From an uncultured Gammaproteobacteria bacterium (GTDB lineage Bacteria; Patescibacteriota; Patescibacteriia; S139-126), in the NCBI GenBank assembly GCA_964620905.1, contig CAZUKA010000002.1, positions 121,154 to 185,153 of the forward strand: a stretch of 64,000 nucleotides of DNA. Direction: 5' to 3'. Positions 8,714 to 48,013 of the stretch are shown here, piece after piece. A program made the position numbers and the translations under genes. The stretch's first letter is position 1; each line of letters opens with the position of its first letter. The notes under the pieces are model-generated. The model was given only the letters and a program-made list of their open reading frames with translations. It was not told where the DNA came from and searched no databases.

Positions 8714-10406
8714 TCTTTTTATTAATAATATAATTATAATATAATTGACAGTAATAATAAATCTCACTACAATATTTAAGTACAATTAAATATATGGAGA
8801 GGTGGCCGAGTGGCTGAAGGCGGCAGGTTGCTAACCTGTTATAGGAGTTTAAATCCCTATCGAGGGTTCGAATCCCTCCCTCTCCGCCAGATTGGCAACT
8901 TTGAACCTTAGTCACGGCAAGGGTTTTTGAGCCCTTGCCACCGACTTTTGGGGGTTCGAAATTGCTAGAGTTTAAGTCCATAAGAACATCAAAGACTGGC
9001 GTCCATATCGGCGTCAGTTTTTGATTTTGCACCGTGAAGCCCTCAAAGCACAGCTTCACCAGTGTTCGCTTCTGATGCATACCACTGGTCTGGAATACTT
9101 TGTCGGCGTGTTCCGTGAAGTCGAGTATCTCGTTAAACTTTTGCACGAATTTGTCCGACTTACCCTCAAGAATCGACAAGCGTTCCTGATACATCTCTTT
9201 CTCCTTTAAAAGCTCGTCCTGAATCTTTATAAACACATCTGCGTCTATGATGCGTTTTGAGCGATCCACAACGATGTTACGGATCTGTTGTTGCACCCTT
9301 ACCAACTCCTGCTTGAGAGTCCTTCGTTCCTTTTCTTCCTGACCCATTCGCTCTTTGGCGAAGTGCTGGAAGTAAGCATCCAAGACCTTCTTAAATCGAT
9401 CCGGCAACTGCACCCTAGAGAGATGCATTGCGACCTGTTCCTCAACCGTCTCCCATCGTATGTATTTACGCTCTGAACAAGCCTTGTCGTTCCAATGGGT
9501 GCATGCGTAGTAGAGATGACCCTTTTGCGTCTGTCCACAGAGCGTAGAACCGCAGACGGCACATCGCATAAAACCGGCCATCGGATAGGAGTGCTTGCGA
9601 CTGCGATCAGCAGAGTGATTGTGTTGTTGGATGATCTCTTGAACGTCATCAAATACCTTTTTAGTAATCAAAGATGGAAAGTTTGCCTGACATGTTGCTG
9701 AACGGGTTTTAACAAGACCATAGTAGATCGGGTTTGCGAGAATGTGTTCGATCGACGTCCGTCTCACTAAATTGCCGTACTTACTTTTGAAACCACGCTT
9801 GGCAAGTTCGGCCGCAAGCGAATCGTAGCTGTACTTTCCAGTCGCGTAGAACTCGAAGGCCATCTTTATAAATGGTGCTCGTAGATTGTCGACAATGAGC
9901 GATTTTGTTTTCTTGTCGTTTAAGTAGCCAGTCGGTGCGTATCCAGGGAACCGGCCACGCTCTACGGCCTCCTTGAGACCCTTCTTGACCTCCCAGCTGA
10001 TGTTCTGGGACGTCCATTGAGCAATTGAGGACATGATGTTCTCGACCAACTCTCCGGAGAAAGACTCATCAAATTGCTCGACCACCGAGATCAGACGAAC
10101 GTCATGCTTTTTGAGCATCATCTTGATGGCCGCATAGTCGGCAACGTTGCGACACATACGGTCCAACTTGTGCATTAAGATAACGTCGACCTTGGCATCG
10201 GTCTTTGCTCGGTGAAGCATTTTTTGAAGCTGTGGACGTTCGACCGTTCGAGCCGATTCGCCCTTCTCCTCGTAGATGCCATCCTGTGCAAGATTCCAGT
10301 GGTGATCCATGCCGTACTTCTGACATGCTTTCACCTGTGCTGGAATACTCAGTTCTCGTTCGGCCTGACGAGAGGTAGAGACACGGCCGTAGATTAAATA
10401 ATTCAT
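8676..10406 (-). CDS. large serine recombinase (phage integrase)
   Basis: N-terminal resolvase catalytic domain (YGRVSTSRQ), recombinase domain, zinc ribbon (CAVCGSTLCG...YYAC), coiled-coil. The ORF has no stop before attL. Its last ~70 codons are the antisense of tRNA-Ser, so the phage-encoded part ends near 8890. Confidence 0.85.
   Translation of the reverse strand: MNYLIYGRVSTSRQAERELSIPAQVKACQKYGMDHHWNLAQDGIYEEKGESARTVERPQLQKMLHRAKTDAKVDVILMHKLDRMCRNVADYAAIKMMLKKHDVRLISVVEQFDESFSGELVENIMSSIAQWTSQNISWEVKKGLKEAVERGRFPGYAPTGYLNDKKTKSLIVDNLRAPFIKMAFEFYATGKYSYDSLAAELAKRGFKSKYGNLVRRTSIEHILANPIYYGLVKTRSATCQANFPSLITKKVFDDVQEIIQQHNHSADRSRKHSYPMAGFMRCAVCGSTLCGQTQKGHLYYACTHWNDKACSERKYIRWETVEEQVAMHLSRVQLPDRFKKVLDAYFQHFAKERMGQEEKERRTLKQELVRVQQQIRNIVVDRSKRIIDADVFIKIQDELLKEKEMYQERLSILEGKSDKFVQKFNEILDFTEHADKVFQTSGMHQKRTLVKLCFEGFTVQNQKLTPIWTPVFDVLMDLNSSNFEPPKVGGKGSKTLAVTKVQSCQSGGEGGIRTLDRDLNSYNRLATCRLQPLGHLSIYLIVLKYCSEIYYYCQLYYNYIINKKNVGYWTNFTYPI
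8796..8889 (+). tRNA. tRNA-Ser (anticodon GCU)
   Basis: Acceptor GGAGAGG/CCUCUCC, anticodon stem GCAGG/CCUGU with loop UUGCUAA, long variable arm, T-arm GAGGG-UUCGAAU-CCCUC, discriminator G plus CCA. Its 3' end is the attachment-site core. Confidence 0.85.
8871..8899 (+). repeat. attL direct repeat (tRNA-Ser 3' end)
   Basis: aatccctccctctccgccagatt(G)gcaac matches 47985-48013 with one mismatch. Confidence 0.8.
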
Positions 10407-10457
10407 AATTTGTTTTTATATAACTTGAGGGCTCTCCTTTGTGGAGAGCCCTGGCGA

Positions 10458-11174
10458 TTAATATTTTTTTATGTGATATGTCAGCCTTCCTAACATCTTG
10501 CTTTCACTCAGAGGGTAGGATTTCTTGAACCCTTCCTTCTCCGGTCGAAGCTCAAGATGGTCGCCCCTCACTTGGTAATAAGTCATCGCCAAACCATCCG
10601 GCGTGCTCATGATCACAATGTCACCATTTTTGGTTGGTGCATCGGCATCAAGGATTATGAAGTCCCCGGAAAGAATACCGGCATCGGGGAGTGCAAGATC
10701 GGATACACGGAGTCCAAATACTCGATGTCCCGGAATCACACCATCCTTGGGAAGTAAAACAAAATCACTCGTTCGACTCAGATGACCATCGAGATCGTCG
10801 ATGGGGATCGCTACGAGCACCGGCAATTTGAAATGACCATCAACAGAAAAAGAATTTTTCAATTCCTCAAGCCCTTGCTCAAGTCTGCTTGCGGCCTCGT
10901 GTACACGCTTCTCGCCGACACCCTTGATGTCGAATTTATAATTGCTCTCCATGCTGACCTGTCGGATTTTGCCTTCGGTCCAACGCTTCCTCACCTCCTC
11001 CTCGGGGAGTTGGTAGGCCTTAGCGAAAGTGACCAGCTGTTTCTGAGATGGAATGCGAGCTCCATTCTCCAGCTGGCTGATATAGCTCGACGAAAAACCG
11101 AGCCGCTCGGCCAGCTCTTTTATAGTCCACTTATTCGATTCTCTTTGTTTTTTTAGATATGAACCAAATGACAT
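10458..11174 (-). CDS. CI/LexA-like repressor (XRE HTH plus S24 peptidase-like C-terminal domain)
   Basis: N-terminal HTH (WTIKELAERLGFSSSYISQLENGARIPS), C-terminal beta-rich LexA/CI-type domain. Divergent from the Cro-like gene. Confidence 0.7.
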   Translation of the reverse strand: MSFGSYLKKQRESNKWTIKELAERLGFSSSYISQLENGARIPSQKQLVTFAKAYQLPEEEVRKRWTEGKIRQVSMESNYKFDIKGVGEKRVHEAASRLEQGLEELKNSFSVDGHFKLPVLVAIPIDDLDGHLSRTSDFVLLPKDGVIPGHRVFGLRVSDLALPDAGILSGDFIILDADAPTKNGDIVIMSTPDGLAMTYYQVRGDHLELRPEKEGFKKSYPLSESKMLGRLTYHIKKY

Positions 11175-11242
11175 ATTTGTTGATTTTGCTTAATCGGTTA
11201 ATGGCGACCTTGATTGCTTAACTATAGCAAATTAGTAAACAT

Positions 11243-11258
11243 TAAGCAACTTTGCTTA
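11243..11258. promoter_or_regulatory. operator palindrome TAAGCAA-CT-TTGCTTA
   Basis: Perfect 7-bp inverted repeat in the repressor/cro intergenic region. Confidence 0.55.
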
Positions 11259-11283
11259 TCCACACCCCAATATATTGACCTTG

Positions 11284-11299
11284 TAAGCAAAATTGCTTA
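11284..11299. promoter_or_regulatory. operator palindrome TAAGCAA-AA-TTGCTTA overlapping a putative cro promoter
   Basis: Second copy of the palindrome. It sits between ttgacc (11274-11279, -35-like) and taatat (11298-11303, -10-like). Related half-sites occur at 11186-11193 and 11214-11230. Confidence 0.5.
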
Positions 11300-11333: not shown

Positions 11334-11540
11334 ATGAACAAAACACCAGTGAATGTAAAACTCCGTGACCTTCGAATCAAGAAAGGGCTAACGCAATACC
11401 AACTAGCCCGAATTCTTGGTTTTAGGCACAACACTGCGATCAGCCGGTACGAGACAGGACGGAAGCGTCCGAATCTCGAAACAGCCCAGCGGATCGCTTT
11501 GGCTCTCGGAGTCAGAGTAGAGGAAGTTTTCTTGCCTTAG
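11334..11540 (+). CDS. Cro-like XRE-family HTH regulator
   Basis: 68 aa with HTH LTQYQLARILGFRHNTAISRYETGRKRP. Divergent to the repressor. Confidence 0.75.
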   Translation: MNKTPVNVKLRDLRIKKGLTQYQLARILGFRHNTAISRYETGRKRPNLETAQRIALALGVRVEEVFLP

Positions 11541-11593
11541 GCAAGGTGGGGTCAATAAAAGTGTGAGGTCACTCTTATGAACCAAACCACCGC

Positions 11594-11872
11594 ATGTCCA
11601 AACCAGACAAAGAAGAGGAAGCTCTTGTTGAGCTTACTCGCAATGCACTCGCCGAGGTACTCGGTCGAGAGCCGTCCCGACAAGAAGTTTGGAAAGTCCA
11701 TGCTGGCTTTAAGCGCATGGCGTTCATGCTATTGGATCACATGGATCACATTAAAAAACATGACAACGAAAATCCTGATCAAGAGACTCTTCCGGAGGAT
11801 GTGGAGCCGGATGACTCGGAAACCGCCAACAAGGAAGGAACTTCTTTGGAGACGGGAGAGTCTTCTGACTAA
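11594..11872 (+). CDS. acidic hypothetical protein
   Basis: 92-aa protein-like frame. The overlapping 11577..11972 frame is R/W-rich and less plausible. Confidence 0.35.
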   Translation: MSKPDKEEEALVELTRNALAEVLGREPSRQEVWKVHAGFKRMAFMLLDHMDHIKKHDNENPDQETLPEDVEPDDSETANKEGTSLETGESSD

Positions 11873-11965
11873 TTTCACCATCCGAGAGCTTGAAAATCCA
11901 ACTATGCGACGAGACTTCTGCCGAGCGATGGACAACATCGATCGAGCCCTACCCAAATCCAAGGA

Positions 11966-12595
11966 ATGGTAGACGGCGTCTTACTCTCCCCTCAATGGCG
12001 CCAGACGGTGATGGGAGGAATAAGGCGCGGTCTGTGGTCGATCACGCCTTTATTATTCGTTGCCATGTCCGATGAAAAAATAAAAGTTAGAGATTTAAGA
12101 AATGGCGATTGGTATTGGATCAACAAAGTACTCCTTGATGAGTACGGCGAGAAACTCAAGCCAATCGGCATCGCAATTTATAACTGCCTGGCGGCACATG
12201 CTAATCAGGAGGGTTTTTGTTTTCCCTCACACAAGCACATTGCCAAAAAAATAGGAGCCAGCATCTCGAGCGTGCAAAGAGGCATTCGGGAACTTATAAA
12301 ACTGAATCTCGTCCGCAAGGGCCGACAACGCTACCACAACCTGTACTACCTGTTGAAACTAGATAGGTCATACAGACCGACCTCAAACAAGCTCGGTCAG
12401 TCAGACCAGTACATCGGTCATGCAGACCGGTCAGATCAGTCAGCCGGAACTACTAACAAGAATAAAGAAAAAGATTTAAATAAAAAGAATTACGCTCGTG
12501 ATCAAAAAACTGTGGATAACTTGGAGGAAATGAAATCGAAGCTCGTTGAAAAGATGTCGATGGGTGCAAAAAAGACGGCAATGGATGACACCTGA
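11966..12595 (+). CDS. winged-HTH DNA-binding protein (possible replication initiator or DnaD-like organiser)
   Basis: FPSHKHIAKKIGASISSVQRGIRELIKLNLV is typical of phage replication-initiator HTH domains. The likely start is the internal Met near 12068. Confidence 0.45.
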   Translation: MVDGVLLSPQWRQTVMGGIRRGLWSITPLLFVAMSDEKIKVRDLRNGDWYWINKVLLDEYGEKLKPIGIAIYNCLAAHANQEGFCFPSHKHIAKKIGASISSVQRGIRELIKLNLVRKGRQRYHNLYYLLKLDRSYRPTSNKLGQSDQYIGHADRSDQSAGTTNKNKEKDLNKKNYARDQKTVDNLEEMKSKLVEKMSMGAKKTAMDDT

Positions 12596-12720
12596 TTTGT
12601 CCGTTAGCCGACCGGGAGGTAGTCGACCCCGAACCGGAAACGTTTATTAATTAATTCCATGATCAAAGGTTTCTGAAGCTCCGGAATCAATACCAAGCGC
12701 CAGCGACCCCAGCGAATAAT

Positions 12721-13011
12721 ATGGAACAAGAACCATTAAATATCGGCAATTGCCCTCATTGCACAAACATCGTCTTCAAGAACGGCGCATTTAATTCCAA
12801 TGCTTCATTCACGATGCGTTGTCCCAGCTGTCAGAAACTTCTTGAGATAGAAATAAAAACAAGGATTGAGATCACTATAAAACCTGCTGAAAGATACATC
12901 TCAGAGAAAAAACCAAAGTTCGGAAAATTATCAATTGCTTTTCTACTGCCGATTCCAGCTACCCATTATGCAGTGTGTGCTTGCGTAATGTGTGTAAATT
13001 GTCTTTTTTGA
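12721..13011 (+). CDS. zinc-ribbon protein
   Basis: CPHC...CPSCQ pair. Confidence 0.35.
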   Translation: MEQEPLNIGNCPHCTNIVFKNGAFNSNASFTMRCPSCQKLLEIEIKTRIEITIKPAERYISEKKPKFGKLSIAFLLPIPATHYAVCACVMCVNCLF

Positions 13012-13070: not shown

Positions 13071-14246
13071 TTATCGCAGTAGACCTGCTAGTTTATTTTT
13101 TGCGCTTACAAACGAATCTTTTTCAGATTCAGGAATAGTCCCTCCTCGGGGGAAATTCGTAGTTTGAGGGTTTATGGGATTACCATCTTCAAACATGGCA
13201 TATTGCAGATGGGGGCCAGTTGAGATACCTGTCGACCCTACATAACCAATAACGTCTCCCTGAACTACATCCACACCATTTTTAATACCTTTGGCGATCT
13301 TTGAAAGATGGGCGTATTGCGTAAGATAACTGCCATGCTTCAACTCCACCGTAATACCGAGTCCACCTTTTGAACCTGCAGTGGTTACTTTTCCATCTGC
13401 AGTAGCAATGACTGGTGTACCCGAATCGGCGGCGTAGTCGATCGCGCGATGCGGAGTGACTTTTTTAGTTACTGGATTGGTACGCTGGTAGCTATAGCCT
13501 GAACTTATCCGAGCGTAATTAAGCGGCGATTTAAGAAACTGACGAGCAAGTGACTGTCCATCCGCGTCATAGAATTTATCGTTATAACGGAATGCTGTGT
13601 ATGTTGTGCCACTATTAGTAAATTTGGCGGCCAACACTTTACCAGCGCCAGCATCCTTGCCGTCCAATGATCGTTTTTCGTAGACAACAGAAAACGAATC
13701 GCCACCCCTAATATCAGTAGCGAAGTCGATATCGCTTGAAAAGATATCAGCGATCTCCATCGTGACCTTATCTGCAATACCAGCATTTTGAGCCGAGACA
13801 AAGAGTGAATCGGTTATAGTCCCATTTGCGGTTACGTTTTGTATTTGATACGGAATAGGTTTTGTAGTTGCTTTAAAAGCGTCATCCTCTTTTACCACAA
13901 TGACAACCGTCTCACTCGTAAGCGGATATTCCACTGAAGCAAACACCTCATTTATAAAGATCAGCTTAATAACCTTACCTGTTTGAATTCTTGTGAAGTC
14001 GAAGGCCTCCTTTGAGGAATTAAGGATAGCAAGAGCCTGATCATAAGGAATCTGAAAAGACCCTAAGATACTCGTAAAAGTGTCGCCGGACTGTATTTTG
14101 TACTCGGCGACCTTTTTCTGATCCGTGCCTATTGCCTGTTGCGCTTGGACTTCTTGCTCGGGCTCGTTATTTAAAATTTTTGAACTTACGAGGGGGACGG
14201 ACGCCATCAGGATACCCCCGATCACTAACGAAACTATTATGTTCAT
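13071..14246 (-). CDS. M23 family metallopeptidase (secreted)
   Basis: N-terminal TM or signal sequence. M23 motifs HRAIDY...D and GSTGISTGPHLQY (HxH). Confidence 0.88.
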   Translation of the reverse strand: MNIIVSLVIGGILMASVPLVSSKILNNEPEQEVQAQQAIGTDQKKVAEYKIQSGDTFTSILGSFQIPYDQALAILNSSKEAFDFTRIQTGKVIKLIFINEVFASVEYPLTSETVVIVVKEDDAFKATTKPIPYQIQNVTANGTITDSLFVSAQNAGIADKVTMEIADIFSSDIDFATDIRGGDSFSVVYEKRSLDGKDAGAGKVLAAKFTNSGTTYTAFRYNDKFYDADGQSLARQFLKSPLNYARISSGYSYQRTNPVTKKVTPHRAIDYAADSGTPVIATADGKVTTAGSKGGLGITVELKHGSYLTQYAHLSKIAKGIKNGVDVVQGDVIGYVGSTGISTGPHLQYAMFEDGNPINPQTTNFPRGGTIPESEKDSFVSAKNKLAGLLR

Positions 14247-14331
14247 AGGTCATTCATTTTAACAAAAATAGCTCTTCATTTCAACCTCATAAAGAGCCTT
14301 ATTTTTAGGCCTATAATGACGGAAAATAATC

Positions 14332-16236: not shown

Positions 16237-16240
16237 ACGT

Positions 16241-16426
16241 TTATTTGTTTTTCCAAGACTTCTTTAAGTCTTTCCAAAATCTCTTGTGAATTTCTATAGT
16301 GTCAGCGAGATGTTTTTCGGCCAAATGCTTCACATCGCCACCAGCTTCTCCTATTATTTCTTGGTGGATTCTAATTTCTTCTTGAGCGTGATCCTTTAAT
16401 GCTTGTATTGCTTTTTTGAGGTTCAT
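16241..16426 (-). CDS. small hypothetical protein
   Basis: 61-aa ORF directly downstream of the ATPase gene. Confidence 0.3.
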   Translation of the reverse strand: MNLKKAIQALKDHAQEEIRIHQEIIGEAGGDVKHLAEKHLADTIEIHKRFWKDLKKSWKNK

Positions 16427-16441
16427 ATGTTTTTTGTTTTA

Positions 16442-16663
16442 TTAATTAGTAATGAGTGTGGTAGTTGCCGGTGATTCTTGCACCGCTTTCTTAGTACTAT
16501 TCCTGTCGTTCCGAGTGGCATATGCATAACCGAGGAGCAAAATAAGCAGTACCACCGTGATGGCAACTTTTTTCGGCTCTACCTTGTCAGAGTGGTTATG
16601 CATATACTTTAATAATTGACGTAGTATTTGATCTTCGCGCTGGCCGTTAGATCGGAAACCCAT
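16442..16663 (-). CDS. small membrane protein, hypothetical
   Basis: 73 aa with one TM. Its start overlaps the end of the upstream gene. Confidence 0.3.
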   Translation of the reverse strand: MGFRSNGQREDQILRQLLKYMHNHSDKVEPKKVAITVVLLILLLGYAYATRNDRNSTKKAVQESPATTTLITN

Positions 16664-17271: not shown

Positions 17272-17282
17272 ATTTTTATATC

Positions 17283-18032: not shown

Positions 18033-18055
18033 GATGGTATATCAATTAATGTTAA

Positions 18056-19132: not shown

Positions 19133-19136
19133 ATTT

Positions 19137-39687: not shown

Positions 39688-39693
39688 ACGCAT

Positions 39694-40326
39694 ATGAACC
39701 GAGGCGAAATAAGACAATCAATAAAAAACGAAGTCGACGATCAAACACTCGACGATACGATCTCAAACTCGTGGATTCAACGTGCGGATGAAAAGGTGCA
39801 AAGCTGGCGTCCTCCCGAGGATCGTGATCAGACATTCGACTACTGGGACTACCTCAAGACCGAACAGCCATACACGACGGTAGCCAACCAACCAAAATAT
39901 CCAGTTCCCGAAAATTACCGAGCGTTCGTGGAATTAAAGATCGGAACTGATACACAACCGTACACGCTGATCGACTTCCGAGCACGTACCCGATACACGG
40001 ATCACGTGGTGTACACACTCGGCGGTTCTTTCTACCCGATAACAACTCCGACTGCAGACGGCGACGCAATGATGCTGGTCTTTGTCCGCATATCGGATGA
40101 CTTCGCATCGGATAACGACGAGCCAGAGGTCGAAAAGTTATATCACCAAGCCTACGTCGAATGGGGCAAAAAGATGTACTACAACCAGCAAGGCGACACC
40201 GAGCTTGAACGCCAAGCTGATAACAACTTCGAACGGATCATGATCGGAAAATGGCGAGATCAAGAGCTTGCCCGAATGGCGTCGGCCGACGATCAAGCTT
40301 CAATCCCACGAAGCAGTCTCGTATAA
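39694..40326 (+). CDS. hypothetical structural protein
   Basis: 210-aa ORF. Confidence 0.4.
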   Translation: MNRGEIRQSIKNEVDDQTLDDTISNSWIQRADEKVQSWRPPEDRDQTFDYWDYLKTEQPYTTVANQPKYPVPENYRAFVELKIGTDTQPYTLIDFRARTRYTDHVVYTLGGSFYPITTPTADGDAMMLVFVRISDDFASDNDEPEVEKLYHQAYVEWGKKMYYNQQGDTELERQADNNFERIMIGKWRDQELARMASADDQASIPRSSLV

Positions 40327-40330
40327 ATCT

Positions 40331-42019: not shown

Positions 42020-42023
42020 ATAT

Positions 42024-42230
42024 ATGCCCGAAGAAACACTAACATTTCGACTTGAAAAGATAGATGCAGAGAATGTGAAAAAGACTGACACACGTGAGGA
42101 AGTGTCGGTCGTAAATGTTCCAGCTCTGCAGTTTCAGAAAGTAATACTGGAAAAAACGATCAGTGACTCGCAAGAACAGCTCGACCAAATCAATGAGGTC
42201 TTGGTCGAGTGGGAAAAATTACCGAAATAG
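42024..42230 (+). CDS. hypothetical protein
   Basis: 68-aa ORF. Confidence 0.3.
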   Translation: MPEETLTFRLEKIDAENVKKTDTREEVSVVNVPALQFQKVILEKTISDSQEQLDQINEVLVEWEKLPK

Positions 42231-42451
42231 TTATGGATGATTACAACAATAAAAACAATCAACAGCCGAAGCAGGATTTTGATCCAAATCTGGGGTCGAT
42301 CTTAACCCTACTTCGAGACATCCCGGTGCTTAACACCGTTCCGTCTGACGCACCAAGAACACAGATCAGTTTTGCGTTTTACGAGAGCGGTGGCACACGC
42401 CGGTTCTATGTCTTTTTTAACGGAGCGTGGAGGTACGCAACCCTTACTTAA
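42209..42451 (+). CDS. hypothetical protein
   Basis: 80-aa ORF. Confidence 0.3.
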   Translation: MGKITEIVMDDYNNKNNQQPKQDFDPNLGSILTLLRDIPVLNTVPSDAPRTQISFAFYESGGTRRFYVFFNGAWRYATLT

Positions 42452-42457
42452 AAACTT

Positions 42458-43792
42458 ATGGCAACAATAACAATACAAAAAGGTCAAACATTATCGGGAA
42501 TCGCCAAACAGCAAGGCACGACACTCGATGCCTTAATGAAAGCAAACCCGTCAATCAAGAATGCGAACCTGATATACGCCGGTGCGAGTTTGAACTTGCC
42601 CGGAGCACCGACTTCACCCGTTGTTGCCCCTAAGGCGAGCGTTCCAACCCCTCCTGCACCTGTGACACCTTCTTCGCCCGTAACCCAGCGCGTTGACCAA
42701 ATTTCGAGCACGGGGACGACCGGTGTACCCCAGAAAAGCACCCTGTATGGCGCTGAAGTGCCTTCTTCGACCAGCTTGCTCACAAAATACCGATCTGAAC
42801 TAGGTCTCGATTCTGCCCTCAAAAGCATGCAGGACAACCAGACTGCCTACCTCGATACCCTCAAGAATTTGCCGAAAAAAGCAGACATCTACGCACAAGA
42901 AAAATCGAAACTTGGCATAGACGTGATGCAGAAAAATCTGCAGAGCTTGGATGATCGTTTGGCAACGATGGAAATGTCACTCGATGATTCAGAGAAAGAC
43001 ATTCGTGATCGAATGGTTAAAAGCGGTGCGATGGTGACGGAAAGCCAAACGCAACGCTTGGTCGCTACCGAGAAACAACCACTCATGGATGAGTACAGAA
43101 AACTTCTCAACGAGCGCAATCGACTAGCCGACAAACTCGGAGTAGCTGATACATCGGCAAAAGAGTCGGCCGGCATGCAGTACGAGGACTCGACACTACC
43201 ACTCACGATCGCAGAAAAAACTCTCGGCTTCCAGAAAGACCAATACGGCGTTCTCGGGGATCTCTTGAAGCAAGTATTCGGTGCTTCAGAAAAAGACGTC
43301 GCCAACATTATAGACGATGCCAAGTACGGCAAAGATCAAGAAAAGAAAGATGCTCAAGATGTGATCGACCGTGCAATCAAACTCGCAAACCTCGCCAACG
43401 ATACTCCGGCCGGCGTGTCTTACGATATCGGTGGCACAAAGGTCACAGGAAAAAAAGTCTCAAGCGGTTCTGATGGAGGAGGATCATCGAGCGATGTAGA
43501 AGCTTACGCACTCGAGCTTCTAAACAATCCAAACTTCACTGCAAGTAACGTGCCTCAAAACATCCGTGCTCAAGTTCTGCAGAAACGAGATCAGATCATC
43601 GCTGAAGCAAACACGCAACAGCAAGCTGATGCGGCGGCTCAAGCTTTGAAATCGAGCCAGCCAAAGATAACAGCTCAAGACTTCGGTGCTGGGGTCAAAG
43701 ACGTATTCACTCAACAGATACCGAGTATTGCGAAGTCCGGATTCAACACCAGCAAGAACTTCCTGAAAGGACTCTTCGGCATCGGAAATTAA
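42458..43792 (+). CDS. LysM-domain virion protein
   Basis: N-terminal LysM (ITIQKGQTLSGIAKQQGTTLDALMKANP...LIYAGASLNLP), a Pro/Thr linker and a coiled-coil-rich body. Confidence 0.6.
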   Translation: MATITIQKGQTLSGIAKQQGTTLDALMKANPSIKNANLIYAGASLNLPGAPTSPVVAPKASVPTPPAPVTPSSPVTQRVDQISSTGTTGVPQKSTLYGAEVPSSTSLLTKYRSELGLDSALKSMQDNQTAYLDTLKNLPKKADIYAQEKSKLGIDVMQKNLQSLDDRLATMEMSLDDSEKDIRDRMVKSGAMVTESQTQRLVATEKQPLMDEYRKLLNERNRLADKLGVADTSAKESAGMQYEDSTLPLTIAEKTLGFQKDQYGVLGDLLKQVFGASEKDVANIIDDAKYGKDQEKKDAQDVIDRAIKLANLANDTPAGVSYDIGGTKVTGKKVSSGSDGGGSSSDVEAYALELLNNPNFTASNVPQNIRAQVLQKRDQIIAEANTQQQADAAAQALKSSQPKITAQDFGAGVKDVFTQQIPSIAKSGFNTSKNFLKGLFGIGN

Positions 43793-43798
43793 AACGCT

Positions 43799-46612
43799 AT
43801 GGCTTACATCAAAGACCCTAAAACTGGAAAGTATGTGAATACCGGTTCTGCACCGGCCACTCCTCCACTCACACCATCAGCACCATCAGCTGGTACTGCA
43901 GTGAAGTACCAAAAGAATGCCGAGGGAAAATTTGTGACGACTGAAGTTCCAAAAACGGCCGGTAAGCCAAACGTGACCACAGTCGAGGGACTACGTGATT
44001 TTGCTCTGCAAAATAACGTGGACGTCTCCTCCACTCAACCTAAAGAATCAACCCTGCAAAAAATACTCCACGTACTCAACACCGGAGGATATGCAGTCGG
44101 TGGCCTTATAAGTGGAAAAGGAATCAAAGCCGGAATCCAAGAACGCATTCAGCCATCTGAAGCACTCGGAATAAAAAGCAAAGTCGGTGGATTTATCGCA
44201 GACATTTTGCTTGATCCTACGACGTACCTCACATTCGGCTACGGGGCCGGTGCAAAACTAGCGACAAAGGCCGGTACAGTCGTGTTGAGCAAAGCTGGAA
44301 CATCAATCCTCAAGAAATCGATCCTTGAAGTCGGAGAGACTGCCGCCCGAAAAGCATTTGCAGAAAAAGTTCTTGCCGAGGGTGGTGAGAAGTTTTTAGC
44401 CAAAGGAGGTCTTAAATTTGCCGGTAAACAGATACTTCCACGATCGGCGGTCACTGCACCGTTCAGAGCGGCCGACTGGATCGCAGAAAAAACACCTGTG
44501 GTCGGCAAACTATACGAGAGTGCAAAAGACCTCGCAGGTAAAGCATTCGTACCGTTTAAGAGCATCAAAGAATTGCCGGGACGAATCGGAGAGGATTACG
44601 TTGATAAATTTTCACAATTTAGTAAAGCAACACGATCGGAAGTCAGTAAAGCTGTCGGTGAAGCAGTCGATCTTGGTAAGACAGCAACAAAAGAGCTCGG
44701 AAAAGATGCTGGAACTAGAGTCGGCCGACTGATCGAGGGAATGACAGACATTCCTGTAAAGACAGCCGCCGGAGTCGAGCAAGTAGCAACTAAAGGAAAC
44801 AGTGTCATCGACAATATCATCGGACACATTCAAGGCGAACATAAACGCTTTGCATCTTTAGAAAAAGAACGAGGACTGCTCGACACCGAGATTCCAGATT
44901 ATCTGCGTCACTACCTGACACCAGAGGGTCGTGAGTTCCTCGCAAAGAATACTGACGTTGCACAAGAGCTTCTGCAAAAGACGAGAGTAAGCACTCCGTT
45001 CGCAAAAGAAAGAAACCTCGATGACACGATCGTAAATATTAATAGTTACTTCCGCAAGACTCACGGCGTGAAGCTATTCGAGCAAGACGCATTCAAAGCG
45101 TTTGGTGCTCGTAAAGCCGAACACGTCAAAGCCGTGAATACCTACGACTTTCTGACTGACGTTGGAAAACAATTCGGCAAGCAAGCCGAAATGGTCACCA
45201 AAGAATTTAAGCATCCGATAAGTGGACAGATGGTGAAAAAAGAAATGGCAAAGCCAATCTTCGACAACGGAATGCGATACATCGAAAGCACCGTGCCTCA
45301 ACTCAAAGGCGTACTTCTGCCCGAACAGATCGTGAAGCATGTCGAGGAAACTTATAAGGTGCTAACGAGCGATGAAGCGACAAAGGGTTTCCTTAAAATC
45401 TACGACAAAGCTCTCGGATTTTGGAAAGGATCAGTGACCGGATGGTTTCCAGCATTCCACGTTCGAAACTCGATCGGTGGAGTTTTCAATAATTTTATAG
45501 CTGGAGTCAAAAACCCTGCACGCTATCTGCAGGGAGATCAAATCGCTCGGGGTGCAAAAGGATCGATCACAACCAAGCTGGGTACGAAATACACCTACCA
45601 GCAAATAAAAGAAATTGCTGAGAAGCTGGGAGTGGTAGGACAGCCCGGTTACTTGGATGTGATGCGTGAGGTCGAAAAAGATGTCGGTAAAGGTGCTGTC
45701 GGCAAACTTATGGATCTGCCGAAAAACGCAATGGAGATCACTGAGAACAGATTGCGTCTGCCTCTTTTTGTGGATCGCTTAATCAGAGGAGATGCACCAG
45801 AGCAAGCCGCAAAGTCTGTATTCCAATTCCACTTCGACTACGCACCGGAAGCACTCGCACCGTTTGAGCAGAACATTATGAAGCGACTGTTGCCGTTCTA
45901 CCGATGGACTCGTGGCAACATTCCGCTTCAGCTCGAGCAGATGGTAAAGCAACCGGGCAAGTATGCCTCCATCGGCAAGTTTGTAGACAACCTCCAAGTC
46001 GACAAAGAGAAAGCCAAAGAGGAATTCCAATATCTGCCTCCGTACATGCGTGAGGGATTGCCGGTCCGACTTGGTGAGAAAAACGGATTCTCACAGTACC
46101 TCTACGGTCTAGGTCTGCCGGTCGAGGATATCAACAGACTCTATAAAGGAAGCCCACAGCGAACGTTGGCGAGTATGGTCGGCGAACTATCACCGATCCT
46201 GAAGTATCCGATCGAAGCGGCCACCGGTCAGAACCTATTCACCGGTGAGCCGATCAAGGAAGGAAGCCGAGTCTATCCATTCGTGAATGCAGTCCCCGGA
46301 CTGCGTGACTGGCTTGAGGTTACCGAGCATAAAAATAAGGACGGCAATATCAGTTATCGAGGAAACGCTTATAAGCTTCACTTCCTCAATACCGCTCTTG
46401 GTCGCTTCTACACCACAGCTGGAAAACTTTCCGATGACAACACATCAGGAGTCGTGAAGTTTCTCTACGGACTCGTCGGTGCAAAAGCAAAGTCAGTCGA
46501 CATGGAAAAAGAAAAGTTCTGGCGTGATCGAGACATTCAAGATCGACTCGAGCAAGCGTTGGAAAGTAGAGGTCTCATCAACAGATTCGATTCGGTATAC
46601 GTACCAAAATAA
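43799..46612 (+). CDS. large virion protein (937 aa; possible internal/ejection or tail-associated protein)
   Basis: Largest ORF of the structural module. The Gly/Ala/Lys-rich N-terminal third gives no clear tape-measure periodicity. Confidence 0.45.
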   Translation: MAYIKDPKTGKYVNTGSAPATPPLTPSAPSAGTAVKYQKNAEGKFVTTEVPKTAGKPNVTTVEGLRDFALQNNVDVSSTQPKESTLQKILHVLNTGGYAVGGLISGKGIKAGIQERIQPSEALGIKSKVGGFIADILLDPTTYLTFGYGAGAKLATKAGTVVLSKAGTSILKKSILEVGETAARKAFAEKVLAEGGEKFLAKGGLKFAGKQILPRSAVTAPFRAADWIAEKTPVVGKLYESAKDLAGKAFVPFKSIKELPGRIGEDYVDKFSQFSKATRSEVSKAVGEAVDLGKTATKELGKDAGTRVGRLIEGMTDIPVKTAAGVEQVATKGNSVIDNIIGHIQGEHKRFASLEKERGLLDTEIPDYLRHYLTPEGREFLAKNTDVAQELLQKTRVSTPFAKERNLDDTIVNINSYFRKTHGVKLFEQDAFKAFGARKAEHVKAVNTYDFLTDVGKQFGKQAEMVTKEFKHPISGQMVKKEMAKPIFDNGMRYIESTVPQLKGVLLPEQIVKHVEETYKVLTSDEATKGFLKIYDKALGFWKGSVTGWFPAFHVRNSIGGVFNNFIAGVKNPARYLQGDQIARGAKGSITTKLGTKYTYQQIKEIAEKLGVVGQPGYLDVMREVEKDVGKGAVGKLMDLPKNAMEITENRLRLPLFVDRLIRGDAPEQAAKSVFQFHFDYAPEALAPFEQNIMKRLLPFYRWTRGNIPLQLEQMVKQPGKYASIGKFVDNLQVDKEKAKEEFQYLPPYMREGLPVRLGEKNGFSQYLYGLGLPVEDINRLYKGSPQRTLASMVGELSPILKYPIEAATGQNLFTGEPIKEGSRVYPFVNAVPGLRDWLEVTEHKNKDGNISYRGNAYKLHFLNTALGRFYTTAGKLSDDNTSGVVKFLYGLVGAKAKSVDMEKEKFWRDRDIQDRLEQALESRGLINRFDSVYVPK

Positions 46613-46616: not shown

Positions 46617-46844
46617 ATGGAAAGAACAGCCTATCAAAACAAAATACAAGATGAGCGTCTCGACCGTGTAGAAAAGACGGTGAACGAAATCAAAGACAAT
46701 CATCTCATACACCTACAGACCGACATGAGCAAGGTCGGAACCGACGTTGATTGGCTCAAACGATTTTTCTGGATCATCGCTACGGCGTCAGTGGGAGGTC
46801 TGATCACAGCAATTATTAACTTACTACTAACCATCAATAAATAA
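46617..46844 (+). CDS. XhlA-like lysis-associated membrane protein
   Basis: 75 aa from the Met at 46617: coiled-coil N-terminus plus a single C-terminal TM (FFWIIATASVGGLITAIINLLL), directly upstream of the endolysin. Confidence 0.5.
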   Translation: MERTAYQNKIQDERLDRVEKTVNEIKDNHLIHLQTDMSKVGTDVDWLKRFFWIIATASVGGLITAIINLLLTINK

Positions 46845-46848
46845 ACTT

Positions 46849-47415
46849 ATGGAAATCATTCAAAAGAAATCACCAAACTTCTGGGTCGGTCGCAAAGGTT
46901 ACCGGCCGGAGGGCGTGGTCATCCACATCATGGACGGCACACTCATCGGCACCGATTCATGGTTCGCAAATCCCTCATCGCAAGTAAGCGCGCATTACGG
47001 AATCGGGAAAAATGGCGAAGTCCACCAATATGTGCAAGAAAACGATTCCGCCTGGCACGCCGGTCGTGTCGATGCACCTCTCTGGAAGCTTATAAAACCG
47101 AATGTGAACCCGAACCTGTACACGATCGGGATCGAACACGAGGGTAAGCCAAACGATGTATGGACTGACTCTATGAAGCAATCAAGTGCAACCTTGATCC
47201 GAGAAATTTGCCAGCGATGGCAGATTCCAATCGACCGGAATCACATCGTTGGCCACTTTGAGATCTTCTCAAAGAAACCAAACTGTCCGGCAAGCAACAA
47301 ACAGATTCTCGACGAACTGGTAGACCTTGCCGGCCAACAGACGACCAATCCCTCTATCGAGGATGGTGTGAGGAAAATCGAGGAAGGATTGGAAATTATT
47401 AAGCGAGCATTTTAA
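46849..47415 (+). CDS. N-acetylmuramoyl-L-alanine amidase (amidase_2/PGRP-type endolysin)
   Basis: GVVIHIMDG...SAHYGIGKNGEVHQYV...AWHAG...GIEHEG...HF match amidase_2 zinc-site motifs. Confidence 0.85.
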   Translation: MEIIQKKSPNFWVGRKGYRPEGVVIHIMDGTLIGTDSWFANPSSQVSAHYGIGKNGEVHQYVQENDSAWHAGRVDAPLWKLIKPNVNPNLYTIGIEHEGKPNDVWTDSMKQSSATLIREICQRWQIPIDRNHIVGHFEIFSKKPNCPASNKQILDELVDLAGQQTTNPSIEDGVRKIEEGLEIIKRAF

Positions 47416-47420
47416 CCACT

Positions 47421-47630
47421 ATGACAACACCACAAAAAGAAGCCCTGAAGCACCTTGCAATCGTGTTCTTTTACTCCGCAGTATCAGCAATCCTGCCGAT
47501 ACTGATAGCCTATGCCGAGAATGACCCTCGTTGGGCATTATTGATCCCGGTGATCAATGCTGGGTGGTATTCGGTAACCCGATACCTCAAAGAACAGAGA
47601 TTGATCGAGGATGCCCGAGGGGAGGAATAA
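47421..47630 (+). CDS. holin-like small membrane protein
   Basis: 69 aa with two TM helices, immediately after the endolysin. Confidence 0.5.
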   Translation: MTTPQKEALKHLAIVFFYSAVSAILPILIAYAENDPRWALLIPVINAGWYSVTRYLKEQRLIEDARGEE

Positions 47631-47984
47631 TCGCTAAAGCTTGCGGAAATCCGGTCCTAGTAGACCTTCTGTGCGAAAGCCGGAACGTCAAAATAGGCCG
47701 GATTTTCCTTGTGAATTCTTCGTAATTCACGTACAATTCTATCTATACGATTGAAAGAAACTGTTGTTCTAGGCCGTGTAATCGGTTCAAAGTTCCGCCA
47801 ATCGTCACCGCCATTCCTAAATTTGTGAAGTTAGTCACGAATTTAGGAATGGTGAATGCGGATGTTGGGATTCGAACGGGCAGGAATGAGCAAGTCCCGA
47901 CAAGGTCGGGACGCAGCGAGATGACATTGAATGTCCGGTGGACATTCAATGCTGCCCAGGGCAAGGAGCTGAAAGATCCGCGGA

Positions 47985-48013
47985 AATCCCTCCCTCTCCG
48001 CCAGATTAGCAAC
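47985..48013 (+). repeat. attR direct repeat (copy of the tRNA-Ser 3' end)
   Basis: aatccctccctctccgccagatt(A)gcaac. GC-rich phage DNA lies to the left and AT-rich host DNA to the right. Confidence 0.8.

What the first reader, a model, noticed from the sequence alone, without database searches (positions are those of the whole stretch)
8796..48013. About 39 kb prophage integrated at tRNA-Ser(GCU) by a serine recombinase, with strong GC mismatch to its AT-rich host
A 23-nt identical block (29 nt with one mismatch) of the tRNA-Ser 3' end recurs about 39.1 kb downstream (8871-8899 and 47985-48013). The composition switches from about 30% GC to 45-55% GC at exactly these junctions. The interval carries a full lysogeny, packaging, head and lysis gene set. 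A GC difference this large between a phage and its host is unusual. It suggests either recent acquisition from a distant donor or a phage lineage whose composition is decoupled from the host. That matters for small-genome, CPR-like bacteria, where few prophages are characterised.
Basis: seen in the sequence. Interest (0 to 1): 0.65.

Follow-up and report, generated by a model that had tools for sequence, protein, structure and literature searches.

The report
CPR prophage inserted in tRNA-Ser
This is a real, intact-looking 39-kb temperate phage inserted into a serine tRNA gene of a small-genome Patescibacteria (CPR) bacterium; it is an ordinary kind of element, but its large serine integrase rarely targets tRNA genes and it belongs to a widespread lineage that stays near 48% GC in hosts of very different composition.

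Summary
The 23-nt repeat (8871-8893 / 47985-48007; 30/32 over 32 nt) is the 3' end of tRNA-Ser(GCU), and GC switches there from about 0.35-0.36 to 0.47. Two related genomes carry the same tRNA-Ser with both flanks collinear and no insert, so this is a true insertion. Independent assemblies span attR and reach into attL, which excludes a chimera.

The interval holds a large serine recombinase (the only recombinase found), a cI/cro pair and an 8-kb cargo block. It also holds defence genes, TerL, portal, an SU10-type capsid, a podovirus-like tail module and lysis genes.

The same integrase (90-98% aa) abuts tRNA-Ser genes with three different anticodons in four other metagenomes. Its reading frame runs through attP, so integration swaps its C-terminal tail.

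The host resembles Falkowbacteria. Copies of the phage at about 95% nucleotide identity sit in Paceibacterota/Minisyncoccia-like hosts. Flanking GC ranges from 0.33 to 0.50 while the phage stays at 0.48. This favours a lineage whose composition is decoupled from its hosts.

CPR prophages of about 39 kb are already catalogued, so this is a new member of a known kind with a rare integrase/target combination.

The parts
8796..8889 (+). tRNA-Ser(GCU), the integration target. It is intact after integration because the phage supplies an identical 3' part.
   Evidence: ARAGORN and Rfam at 60.5 bits. It is 94/94 identical to the uninterrupted tRNA in relatives L080 and L081.
8871..8902 (.). attL common core: 23 nt exact (8871-8893), with similarity to 8902.
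   Evidence: The Logan contig L022 crosses it from the phage side into the tRNA, reaching 8864.
8676..10406 (-). Large serine recombinase (integrase). The prophage-form ORF is 576 aa and reads through attL and the antisense tRNA. The predicted free-phage (attP) form is 524 aa.
   Evidence: Pfam Resolvase 4e-30, Recombinase 1.9e-13, Zn_ribbon_recom 9e-8. The catalytic domain matches TP901-1 integrase at 1.3e-13. The ORF was read and the attP form reconstructed. Third-position bias continues up to the core.
10458..11174 (-). CI-like repressor (HTH plus S24 peptidase).
   Evidence: Pfam HTH_3 9.6e-15 and Peptidase_S24 4.5e-7.
11334..13011 (+). Cro-like HTH (11334-11540) and early genes, including an HTH_36 protein (11966-12595).
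   Evidence: Pfam.
13071..21094 (-). Cargo block. It holds an M23 DD-endopeptidase, a heavy-metal P-type ATPase, a SurA-like protein, two DsbA-like proteins, a thioredoxin-like protein and a SufS-like cysteine desulfurase. GC is 0.41-0.46.
   Evidence: Pfam and NCBIfam, with TIGR01525 at 582 bits above its cut-off. GC and tetranucleotide usage are intermediate between phage and host. The block was seen only in this variant.
21160..25992 (-). Accessory and defence genes: a 138-aa ORF, a TrlF-family/Ppl-like ATPase (21594-24383), RadC (24387-24890) and a SoFic-like Fic protein (24916-25992).
   Evidence: NCBIfam NF045780 at 494 bits, above its 350-bit cut-off. PADLOC Ppl 3.8e-37 and SoFic 4.6e-45. 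RadC and Fic are conserved across the lineage.
26130..28752 (+). A 155-aa ORF, a Dam-type N6-adenine methyltransferase and a ParB_N-like protein.
   Evidence: Pfam and PADLOC MTase_II.
28692..32659 (+). Packaging genes: a putative small terminase (138 aa, no hit), the large terminase (29112-30761) and the portal (30689-32659).
   Evidence: PHROG phrog_2 TerL at 2.7e-19. The portal matches are weak: phrog_1216 at 8e-5 and PF23899 below its cut-off.
33099..35221 (+). A 280-aa putative scaffold protein and the SU10-type major capsid protein (33998-35221).
   Evidence: PF17236 at 5.9e-40 and 138 bits. An identical protein occurs on 19 contigs.
35324..46612 (+). Podovirus-like tail and ejection module. 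It holds a beta-helix protein (36515-38068), a protein built of 14-aa repeats (38075-39376), BppU_N (39373-39687) and an SU10 adaptor (39694-40326). It also holds a 583-aa protein, a LysM protein (42458-43792) and a 937-aa protein.
   Evidence: Pfam, PHROGs and the repeats.
46617..47630 (+). Lysis genes: a 75-aa ORF, an Amidase_2 endolysin (46849-47415) and a 69-aa ORF.
   Evidence: PF01510 at 7.9e-28. The 69-aa protein is indexed in 162 blocks of the collection.
47812..47984 (.). Variant-specific right arm (P arm). It starts where near-identical phages diverge and is strongly structured. It contains a degenerate inverted copy of the tRNA-Ser 3' end at 47857-47876.
   Evidence: The divergence point is shown. 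The fold has z = -6.96.
47985..48016 (.). attR common core: a displaced copy of the tRNA-Ser 3' end.
   Evidence: The junction was assembled independently in L138 (SRR10807893) and L139 (SRR10807626) at 100% identity.
48014..48729 (+). Extra AT-rich segment holding a 188-aa membrane-protein gene (48047-48613). It is absent from the empty site of relatives and is probably the remnant of an earlier element at the same tRNA.
   Evidence: blastn collinearity. A 64%-identical homologue lies at the right end of phage variant L012/L023. GC is 0.30-0.37.

Best explanation
The interval is a temperate, podovirus-like tailed phage of about 39.1 kb, lysogenised in a Falkowbacteria-like Patescibacteria (CPR) bacterium.

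Its large serine recombinase recombined a phage attP with the 3' part of the host tRNA-Ser(GCU) gene. attP carries a copy of the tRNA from the T-loop to the CCA end, so attL regenerates an intact tRNA and attR keeps the displaced fragment.

attP lies inside the 3' end of the integrase gene. Integration therefore replaces the last 12 codons of a 524-aa integrase with a host-dependent tail, giving 576 aa here.

The target sequence is shared by all tRNA-Ser isoacceptors, and the same integrase is found at the GCU, UGA and CGA genes in different hosts.

The phage belongs to a widespread lineage with a conserved structural half at about 0.48 GC. Its integrase/att and cargo modules are swapped between variants. 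The lineage lysogenises CPR hosts of very different GC content, which explains the mismatch.

Shown by the data: the insertion, the att repeats, the gene content, the linkage of integrase to tRNA-Ser, the lineage distribution and the compositional facts.

Inferred, not shown: catalysis by this integrase, the position of the crossover, the effect of the tail swap, current inducibility, and true host range.
For: Repeat and GC switch.

Empty site: window 25-8889 and 48730-61707 are collinear with L080/L081. The tRNA is 94/94 identical and 8 nt stand in place of 39.84 kb.

Independent assemblies span attR (L138, L139) and reach into attL (L022).

Only one recombinase is present. All three LSR domains are found, the catalytic RVST motif aligns to TP901-1, and no Phage_integrase hit appears in any ORF.

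Four further attL junctions carry the same integrase at 90-98% aa identity: tRNA-Ser GCU, UGA, GCU and CGA.

The ORF runs through the core, with third-position bias up to it.

A full phage gene set is present.

Lineage: an identical MCP on 19 contigs, and the last gene in 162 index blocks. GTDB genomes titled Saccharibacteria, Parcubacteria, Nomurabacteria, Paceibacterota, Uhrbacteria and Magasanikiibacteriota carry the MCP at 81-95% aa identity.

Copies at 94-97% nucleotide identity keep GC 0.48 beside flanks of 0.33-0.50.

Host of the window is Falkowbacteria-like. Hosts of the ~95% copies L026 and L025 are Paceibacterota/Minisyncoccia.
Against: No attP (circular) or same-strain attB junction was found. 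IMG/VR gave 0 hits, and the 18 metagenome hits contained none.

The crossover dinucleotide is not mapped, and no dyad symmetry was detected in the reconstructed sites.

No recombination directionality factor was identified.

A common core of at least 23 nt within a tRNA gene is atypical for serine integrases, which usually show 5-8 bp cores inside ORFs (PMC8092301).

The insert relative to relatives is 716 nt longer than the repeat-bounded interval.

Host taxonomy rests on best named hits at about 75% identity.

Seven genome records carrying the family are titled Gammaproteobacteria, Methyloversatilis or Kiritimatiellae. I could not resolve whether these labels are wrong.

Flanks at GC 0.49-0.50 (L012, L013, L028) may be phage cargo rather than host.
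Confidence: 0.85

Rival explanations
1. Assembly chimera or mis-binning: a GC-rich phage contig was wrongly joined to an AT-rich CPR contig.
For: Logan unitigs from the same run break close to the junctions. L022 ends at window 8864 and L014 ends at 47886.
Against: The junctions are a precise direct repeat of the tRNA 3' end, with the integrase adjacent. Two independent assemblies span attR at 100% identity, and L022 carries 7 tRNA-specific bases beyond the core. Relatives show the exact empty site. Four other assemblies show the same integrase/tRNA-Ser junction.
Confidence: 0.02
2. The GC mismatch reflects a single recent transfer into a non-native host from a donor of about 48% GC. On this reading the lineage is adapted to GC-richer hosts and AT-rich lysogens are recent spill-overs.
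For: There is no sign of amelioration: structural genes are at 0.48-0.49 and tetranucleotide correlation with the host is 0.07-0.23. Copies 94-97% identical in other contigs imply recent spread. Some flanks are 0.49-0.53 GC.
Against: AT-rich or intermediate flanks are frequent, not exceptional: 0.33, 0.33, 0.36-0.38 and 0.40 three times. More distant family members in named CPR genomes span GC 0.42-0.49. The two readings are not exclusive.
Confidence: 0.25
3. The element is a defective (grounded) prophage or a phage-derived genomic island that can no longer excise or form particles in this host.
For: No attP or empty-site sequence was found in the same samples; both contigs carrying this ComF-like gene show attR. 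The integrase tail is altered by 64 host-encoded residues. No directionality factor was recognised.
Against: All module genes are full length, with the same lengths as in eight or more near-identical copies from other samples. The cI/cro pair and the lysis genes are intact. Wide dissemination at 94-100% identity implies recent mobility.
Confidence: 0.12
4. Integration was catalysed by a different enzyme, such as a lost tyrosine integrase or host Xer. On this reading the serine recombinase is a resolvase or invertase unrelated to integration, as the long tRNA core might suggest.
For: Long common cores at tRNA genes are the hallmark of tyrosine integrases. Serine integrases typically have 5-8 bp cores in ORFs (PMC8092301). 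Only 4.9% of mapped S-Int elements use t(m)RNA genes (PMC7192596).
Against: No Phage_integrase domain was found in any ORF of the insert. The serine recombinase has the full integrase-type architecture. Its gene physically overlaps the core in five independent junctions. A small serine recombinase is already known to use the same tRNA-Ser 3' end (phiRSM, PMC3816273).
Confidence: 0.04

Closest known systems
Phage-encoded large serine integrases (TP901-1, Bxb1, phiC31, A118)
   Same: It has the same three-domain architecture of Resolvase, Recombinase and zinc ribbon. The catalytic domain aligns to TP901-1 integrase. The gene lies next to attP at one prophage end, beside a cI-like repressor.
   Different: The target is a tRNA gene, and the common core is at least 23 nt and rebuilds the gene. 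Typical serine integrases use a 5-8 bp core inside an ORF that is disrupted (PMC8092301). The integrase ORF extends across attP. No directionality factor was recognised.
phiRSM-type Int/attP unit of Ralstonia filamentous phages
   Same: A serine-family recombinase integrates at the 3' end of a tRNA-Ser gene. The 13-nt phiRSM core TGGCGGAGAGGGT (PMC3816273) shares 12 of its 13 nt with the reverse complement of the acceptor-end sequence CCCTCTCCGCCA inside the core here.
   Different: phiRSM uses a small resolvase-like recombinase without the recombinase and zinc-ribbon domains, a 13-nt core, and an ssDNA inovirus of about 9 kb. Here the enzyme is a 524-aa large serine recombinase in a 39-kb tailed phage.
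Computationally mapped S-Int integrative elements in t(m)RNA genes (TIGER/Islander survey)
   Same: The combination of integrase family and target class is the same. That survey found 14 of 297 S-Int elements in t(m)RNA genes and called the usage previously unreported and in need of experimental proof (PMC7192596).
   Different: This case has an empty site, five independent junctions and use of several isoacceptors. None of the reported cases is from CPR, as far as I could check.
Mx8 (Myxococcus) and SSV-type integrases whose gene contains attP
   Same: attP lies within the int coding sequence, so integration creates a new 3' end of int (PMC6070905, PMC4383910).
   Different: Those are tyrosine integrases. 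In SSV the gene is split in two. Here only the last 12 codons are exchanged.
Ccr recombinases of SCCmec
   Same: Both are large serine recombinases that target the 3' end of a conserved gene and regenerate it. Direct repeats and tandem accretion of elements at one site are a known feature of SCC (my own knowledge). The best NCBIfam partial hit is CcrB at 2.9e-36.
   Different: The scores are far below the family cut-offs (125 bits against 900). The target is rlmH, not a tRNA, and SCC is not a phage.
Metagenomic CPR/Patescibacteria prophages and SU10-type podoviruses
   Same: CPR prophages in Paceibacteria, ABY1 and Gracilibacteria are catalogued, with complete CPR viral genomes averaging 39 kb (PMC11310336). 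Most Patescibacteriota phages in groundwater are reported as temperate, and about half as multi-host (PMC12911398). IMG/VR already holds 5 UViGs with the MCP at 89-94% identity. The MCP and adaptor belong to the SU10 Pfam families.
   Different: I found no paper describing this lineage, its integrase or its att site. The closest GenBank phage MCP is at most about 30% identical, so it is not a member of any named genus.

Membership tests
Large serine recombinase (phage-type serine integrase) | N-terminal resolvase catalytic domain with the nucleophilic serine | tested here: met
   PF00239 at 4e-30 covering residues 5-152. The motif YGRVSTSRQ aligns with the TP901-1 integrase catalytic domain.
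Large serine recombinase (phage-type serine integrase) | Recombinase domain plus zinc beta-ribbon domain C-terminal to the catalytic domain | tested here: met
   PF07508 at 1.9e-13 (residues 176-261) and PF13408 at 9.2e-8 (residues 276-328).
Large serine recombinase (phage-type serine integrase) | Coiled-coil motif within the zinc-ribbon domain that controls directionality | not tested
   Residues of about 340-430 look heptad-rich by eye. No coiled-coil prediction or structure model was run.
Large serine recombinase (phage-type serine integrase) | Typical att architecture: a short (2-8 bp) common core, with attB inside an ORF | tested here: not met
   The core is at least 23 nt and lies in a tRNA gene. 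This feature is typical rather than defining (PMC8092301, PMC7192596).
Large serine recombinase (phage-type serine integrase) | Catalysis of attP x attB recombination, with excision dependent on a directionality factor | not testable with these tools
   This needs a biochemical or in vivo assay.
Integrated temperate tailed phage (prophage) | Insertion bounded by att direct repeats, with an empty site in related genomes | tested here: met
Integrated temperate tailed phage (prophage) | Lysogeny switch, terminase, portal, major capsid, tail and lysis genes | tested here: met
   The portal assignment is weak.
Integrated temperate tailed phage (prophage) | Excision, replication and particle formation | not testable with these tools
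   No attP sequence was found in the collections scanned.
tDNA-targeting genomic island with tyrosine integrase (Islander type) | Tyrosine integrase gene on the element | tested here: not met
   No Phage_integrase hit appeared in any ORF of the insert.
tDNA-targeting genomic island with tyrosine integrase (Islander type) | Intact tDNA at one end and a displaced tDNA fragment at the other | tested here: met
phiRSM Int/attP unit | Small (resolvase-size) serine recombinase | tested here: not met
   The protein is 524-576 aa and carries the recombinase and zinc-ribbon domains.
phiRSM Int/attP unit | attP equals the 3' end of tRNA-Ser | tested here: met
   The core contains CCCTCTCCGCCA, which matches 12 of the 13 nt of the reverse complement of the phiRSM core (PMC3816273).
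SU10-like (Kuravirus-type) podoviruses | SU10-family major capsid and adaptor proteins | tested here: met
   PF17236 at 138 bits (cut-off 24.1) and PF24175 at 49.9 bits (cut-off 27).
SU10-like (Kuravirus-type) podoviruses | Close sequence relationship to named members | tested here: not met
   The best GenBank phage MCP hit is at most about 30% aa identical, and none of the hits is a Kuravirus. The portal match to PF23899 is below its cut-off.
CPR / Patescibacteria host | Housekeeping proteins closest to CPR genomes | tested here: met
   Best named EF-G hits are Falkowbacteria, Patescibacteria group and Uhrbacteria at 74-76%. Named ClpC hits are all Patescibacteria. No rRNA or marker-set phylogeny was done.

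The most novel reading that the evidence does not exclude
One phage species (about 95% nucleotide identity, identical capsid protein) lysogenises hosts from different phylum-rank CPR lineages: Falkowbacteria-like here, and Paceibacterota/Minisyncoccia in L025 and L026.

Two things would make this possible. Its serine integrase targets the tRNA-Ser 3' end, which is invariant across isoacceptors and hosts. Its integrase/att modules are also freely exchanged between variants.

Because the right half of attP equals the right half of attB, attL resembles attB and attR resembles attP on that side. This could allow repeated insertion at the same tRNA. It could also explain the integrase-less defence islands that start with the same arm sequence at tRNA-Ser genes: either piggy-backing satellites or remnants of earlier elements.
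Probability: 0.3. Interest if true: 0.7.

Novelty: new member of a known kind. Interest (0 to 1): 0.5.

Why it matters
It gives a cleanly delimited and apparently intact prophage of an uncultivated CPR bacterium. Both junctions, an empty site and many near-identical copies are available. This makes it a good reference case for CPR phage biology.

It is one of the best-supported natural examples of a large serine integrase that targets a tRNA gene. That usage was described in 2020 as previously unreported and in need of experimental proof (PMC7192596).

The target is conserved in all tRNA-Ser genes, and serine integrases need no host factors. The Int/attP pair is therefore a candidate broad-host integration tool for genetically intractable CPR bacteria.

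The constant 48% GC across hosts of 33-50% GC cautions against using compositional matching for host prediction of CPR phages. It also runs against the general trend that phages track their hosts (R = 0.90) and are slightly AT-richer than them (PMC5989581).

Tried and rejected
1. Search for the circular (attP) or same-strain empty (attB) junction. The core plus 6 nt gave 0 hits in IMG/VR. The 18 metagenome hits were all attL-type or island junctions. The 188-aa gene product is not on record, and both contigs carrying the ComF-like gene show attR.

2. Dyad-symmetry scan of the reconstructed attP and attB to locate the crossover gave no clear centre.

3. Rfam on the whole window found only the two tRNAs. 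The structured right arm matches no known RNA family.

4. A tyrosine integrase or second recombinase was searched for in all genes and in the larger shadow ORFs. None was found.

5. I considered that the conserved GATTGGCAACTTTGAAC after tRNA-Ser is a native CPR trailer. This is disfavoured for three reasons. The relatives' empty site has TAAAAAAATAC instead. Only 18 exact matches exist in 241 million records. In several such loci GC also switches at the tRNA.

6. I considered that the true right boundary is 48729, with the inner repeat being an internal phage feature. This is disfavoured because GC drops from 0.52 to 0.30 exactly at 48000, and near-identical phages end before that point.

7. 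A search for relatives of the 188-aa protein in viral contigs found none.

8. Literature searches for this lineage or for serine recombinases in Patescibacteria phages found nothing specific.

Full report
OBSERVATION

ARAGORN and Rfam place a 94-nt tRNA-Ser(GCU) at 8796-8889 on the + strand. The 23-nt string AATCCCTCCCTCTCCGCCAGATT occurs exactly twice in the 64-kb window, at 8871-8893 and 47985-48007. None of 100 dinucleotide-preserving shuffles gave any match, even with three mismatches allowed. The similarity continues to 30/32 over 8871-8902 and 47985-48016. The block runs from the T-loop to the encoded CCA of the tRNA, plus a few further bases.

GC is 0.352 and 0.361 in the two flanks and 0.468 in between. 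In 200-nt windows the switch falls on the repeats. Tetranucleotide usage tells the same story. Host segments correlate with one another at 0.83-0.86, phage segments at 0.81-0.88, and host with phage at only 0.07-0.41.

IT IS A REAL INSERTION

I searched for relatives of the ClpC-like gene that lies 1.4 kb from attR and fetched their contigs. Two related genomes, with ClpC 76% and EF-G 92% identical, have the empty site: L080 (a 178-kb JGI contig) and L081 (GCA_020724865.1, 269 kb). Window 25-8889 is collinear with L080 21755-13174, and window 48730-61707 with L080 13165-1. The tRNA-Ser is 94/94 identical. Eight nucleotides stand where the window has 39.84 kb.

Independent Logan assemblies of two runs span attR at 100% identity: L138 equals window 47857-52411, and L139 equals 47926-51381. 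Another contig, L022, runs from the phage through the attL core into tRNA-specific bases. An assembly chimera is excluded.

GENE CONTENT

From attL the order is as follows.
- A large serine recombinase, then a CI-like repressor (HTH plus S24) divergent from a Cro-like HTH, then an HTH_36 protein.
- An 8-kb minus-strand cargo block holding an M23 DD-endopeptidase, a heavy-metal P-type ATPase, a SurA-like protein, two DsbA-like proteins, a thioredoxin-like protein and a SufS-like desulfurase.
- A TrlF-family/Ppl-like ATPase, RadC and a SoFic-like Fic protein.
- On the plus strand: a Dam methyltransferase, a ParB_N-like protein, the large terminase and a weakly supported portal.
- An SU10-family major capsid protein, a beta-helix protein, a 433-aa protein made of about 25 tandem 14-residue repeats, BppU_N and an SU10 adaptor.
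- Large proteins of 583 and 937 aa, a LysM protein, an Amidase_2 endolysin and two small ORFs.

There is no tape-measure or tail-tube gene, so the virion is probably podovirus-like. The closest capsid protein in 50,697 GenBank phage records is at most about 30% identical.

INTEGRASE AND ATT SITES

The serine recombinase is the only recombinase in the insert. No Phage_integrase domain was found in any gene or larger shadow ORF. It has the Resolvase, Recombinase and zinc-ribbon domains, and its catalytic motif aligns with TP901-1 integrase.

A metagenome scan for the core plus six bases returned 18 loci. Four of them (L059, L060, L067, L071) carry the same integrase at 90-98% aa identity. In each it reads antisense into a tRNA-Ser gene, with anticodons GCU, UGA, GCU and CGA respectively. 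One integrase family therefore uses at least three isoacceptor genes. These genes share the T-arm and acceptor 3' sequence.

The integrase ORF does not stop before the core. Residues 505-512 (QSGGEGGI) are encoded by the core itself. Differences from the L067 copy are biased to third codon positions right up to it, 21 of 32 in codons 431-500. Joining the attR left arm to the attL right arm predicts a 524-aa protein ending in SADLSAPCPGQH in the free phage. In prophages these 12 residues are replaced by host-dependent tails of 6-64 residues, giving 576 aa here.

This architecture resembles Mx8 and SSV, where attP lies inside int (PMC6070905, PMC4383910), but those enzymes are tyrosine integrases.

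The att architecture is unusual for the enzyme family. Serine integrases characteristically have 5-8 bp cores inside ORFs, whereas 25-76 bp cores that rebuild tRNA 3' ends are typical of tyrosine integrases (PMC8092301). [quoted passage not shown] A 2020 survey found 14 of 297 S-Int elements in t(m)RNA genes and called this previously unreported and in need of proof (PMC7192596). The small serine recombinase of phiRSM does use a 13-nt tRNA-Ser 3' end, almost the same acceptor sequence as here (PMC3816273).

THE RIGHT BOUNDARY

Relative to the empty site, the insertion includes 716 AT-rich nucleotides beyond attR (48014-48729) that carry a 188-aa membrane-protein gene. In the relatives the tRNA is followed by TAAAAAAATAC, not by GATTAGCAAC. 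A 64%-identical homologue of the 188-aa protein lies directly at the right end of another variant of the phage, L012/L023.

The other 14 loci from the metagenome scan also have tRNA-Ser followed by GATTGGCAACTTTGAAC, or in one case (L074) GATTGGCAACTTGGAAC, but no integrase. In the three loci I scanned the next genes are defence genes: an AAA_21/AAA_15 ATPase, an EcoRI-type methylase with GmrSD/HNH, and a type ISP restriction-modification enzyme with AbiU2. In several loci GC drops by 8-16 points at that junction. A third relative, L077, has yet another island at this tRNA, with a serine recombinase only 28% identical plus a type I restriction system.

My inference, at moderate confidence, is that the tRNA-Ser 3' end is an integration hotspot where elements accumulate. 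On this view the 716-nt piece is the remnant of an earlier element. The similarity of the two repeats beyond the tRNA end would then be similarity between two element arms. The alternative, that 48729 is the true end of the phage, is disfavoured. GC falls from 0.52 to 0.30 exactly at 48000, and near-identical phages end before that point.

HOST

The best named relatives of the host EF-G are Candidatus Falkowbacteria, Patescibacteria group and Uhrbacteria at 74-76% identity. All named ClpC relatives are Patescibacteria. The flanks encode a T4SS pilin, RadA, RecG, a ComF-like protein and ClpC.

THE LINEAGE AND THE GC QUESTION

An identical capsid protein is found on 19 contigs from wastewater, groundwater (including the Hainich 0.1-um fractions) and other samples. 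The identical last gene is indexed in 162 blocks of the collection.

In GTDB species representatives, 19 genomes carry the capsid at 81-95% aa identity. Their record titles include Saccharibacteria, Parcubacteria, Nomurabacteria, Paceibacterota, Uhrbacteria and Magasanikiibacteriota. Nucleotide identity over the structural half is 68-88% and GC is 0.42-0.49. IMG/VR holds five UViGs at 89-94%.

All near-identical copies (94-97% nucleotide identity) share sequence up to window position about 47812 and then diverge. Beyond that point they show other tRNA fragments, a ligase gene end and other sequences, so the integrase/att module is exchangeable. The gene upstream of RadC also differs between variants.

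In these copies the phage part is always 0.48-0.49 GC, while the flanks are 0.33, 0.36-0.38, 0.40 and 0.49-0.50.

The host of the 94-95% copy on a 397-kb wastewater contig has a LigA closest to Paceibacterota, Minisyncoccia and Nomurabacteria. The host protein next to another 94.5% copy is named Minisyncoccia bacterium. In the NCBI taxonomy these belong to a different phylum-rank taxon from Falkowbacteria.

The mismatch is therefore a property of the lineage, which keeps its own composition across hosts. A recent spill-over component cannot be separated from this, and both may be true. Phages normally track host GC (R = 0.90) and tend to be AT-richer than their hosts (PMC5989581). A prophage 11 points GC-richer than its host is thus against the trend.

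MECHANISM, WITH STATUS

Shown:
- The site, repeats and intact tRNA.
- The integrase/att linkage across hosts.
- attP lying inside int.
- Modular variants of the phage.
- The compositional facts.

Inferred:
- The integrase dimer pair recombines attP with the T-arm/acceptor part of tRNA-Ser.
- The crossover lies within the 23-nt core, but its position is unknown. No dyad symmetry was detected.
- The right half-sites of attP and attB are identical, so attL resembles attB on that side. This may permit repeated insertions.
- The C-terminal swap may alter integrase stability or activity, as in Mx8.
- The cI/S24 repressor suggests SOS-type induction.
- Cargo and defence genes may benefit the lysogen.

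COMPARISON AND NOVELTY

CPR prophages of about 39 kb in Paceibacteria, ABY1 and Gracilibacteria are already catalogued (PMC11310336). Groundwater Patescibacteriota are reported to be infected mostly by temperate phages, often linked to more than one host (PMC12911398). I found no description of this lineage or of its integration system.

I file it as a new member of a known kind, namely a temperate phage at a tRNA gene. It has a rare integrase/target combination and a notable distribution. Interest is moderate.

CAVEATS

- No attP or same-strain attB sequence was found.
- Host taxonomy rests on best named hits.
- Seven genome records carrying the family are titled Gammaproteobacteria, Methyloversatilis or Kiritimatiellae. 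I could not inspect their host sequence.
- Flanks at GC 0.49-0.50 may be cargo rather than host.

Noticed in passing
L061-L076 (metagenome loci); compare window 8890-8906: Fourteen loci (L061-L066, L068-L070, L072-L076) have a tRNA-Ser gene or 3' fragment (anticodons CGA, GGA, GCU where the gene is complete) followed by the same GATTGGCAACTTTGAAC as the phage arm (TTGGAAC in L074), but no integrase. In the three loci scanned (L064, L073, L075) the next genes are defence genes: an AAA_21 ATPase, an EcoRI methylase with GmrSD/HNH, and type ISP R-M with AbiU2. GC often drops at the junction. They may be integrase-less islands, remnants, or satellites using the same att.
   Followed up: partly
window 48014-48729: An AT-rich 716-nt segment with a 188-aa membrane-protein gene lies just outside attR. 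It is absent from the empty site of relatives. A 64%-identical homologue lies at the right end of phage variant L012/L023.
   Followed up: partly
window 47812-47984: The variant-specific right arm folds into three strong hairpins (z = -6.96). It contains a degenerate inverted copy of the tRNA-Ser 3' end (GCGGAtgttGGGATTCGAAC at 47857-47876). A GGATTCGAA motif preceded by a hairpin recurs in the different right arms of other variants (L016, L017, L018, L028). Its function is unknown and there is no Rfam match.
   Followed up: partly
window 38075-39376: A 433-aa structural protein consists of about 25 tandem 14-residue repeats (consensus TYxxDxxxLxxKxx) and matches no Pfam family. It has the same length in most copies of the lineage examined.
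   Followed up: partly
L077 13217-22472 (GCA_964493305.1): In a third relative the same tRNA-Ser(GCU) is inverted relative to the ComF-like gene. It is followed by a different island holding a 441-aa serine recombinase (28% identical) and a type I restriction-modification system. The locus is an integration hotspot.
   Followed up: partly
window 13071-21094; L012/L023 11000-19100; L031 11468-15276: Different variants carry different cargo of one theme: envelope, redox and metal homeostasis. This window has DsbA-like proteins, a heavy-metal P-type ATPase, SufS-like and M23 proteins. L012 has cupredoxin, HMA/DsbD, a P-type ATPase and CsoR. L031 has DsbA, VKOR and RNR, although the L031 RNR is 100% identical to a Candidatus Vogelbacteria protein, so that stretch may be host sequence.
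   Followed up: partly
L035, L039, L042, L045, L046, L047, L050: Seven GTDB genome records carrying the capsid at 90-93% identity are titled Gammaproteobacteria, Methyloversatilis or Kiritimatiellae. Some are contigs of 0.5-1.3 Mb. These could be mislabelled CPR genomes, mis-binned contigs or real non-CPR hosts. This was not resolved.
   Followed up: no
window 8393-8785 (-): A 130-aa small membrane-protein ORF lies between the 57-aa ORF and the tRNA-Ser. The corresponding about 390 nt are absent from relatives L080 and L081.
   Followed up: no
window 26000-47600: There is a strong positive AT skew (0.1-0.38) along the whole plus-strand structural module, meaning A exceeds T on the coding strand. 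The skew is negative in the minus-strand left arm.
   Followed up: no
window 54139-58793: Two large host ORFs (979 and 531 aa) have no Pfam match. Homologous DNA is present at the equivalent position in relatives, though it aligns only at the start and end of the first ORF.
   Followed up: no
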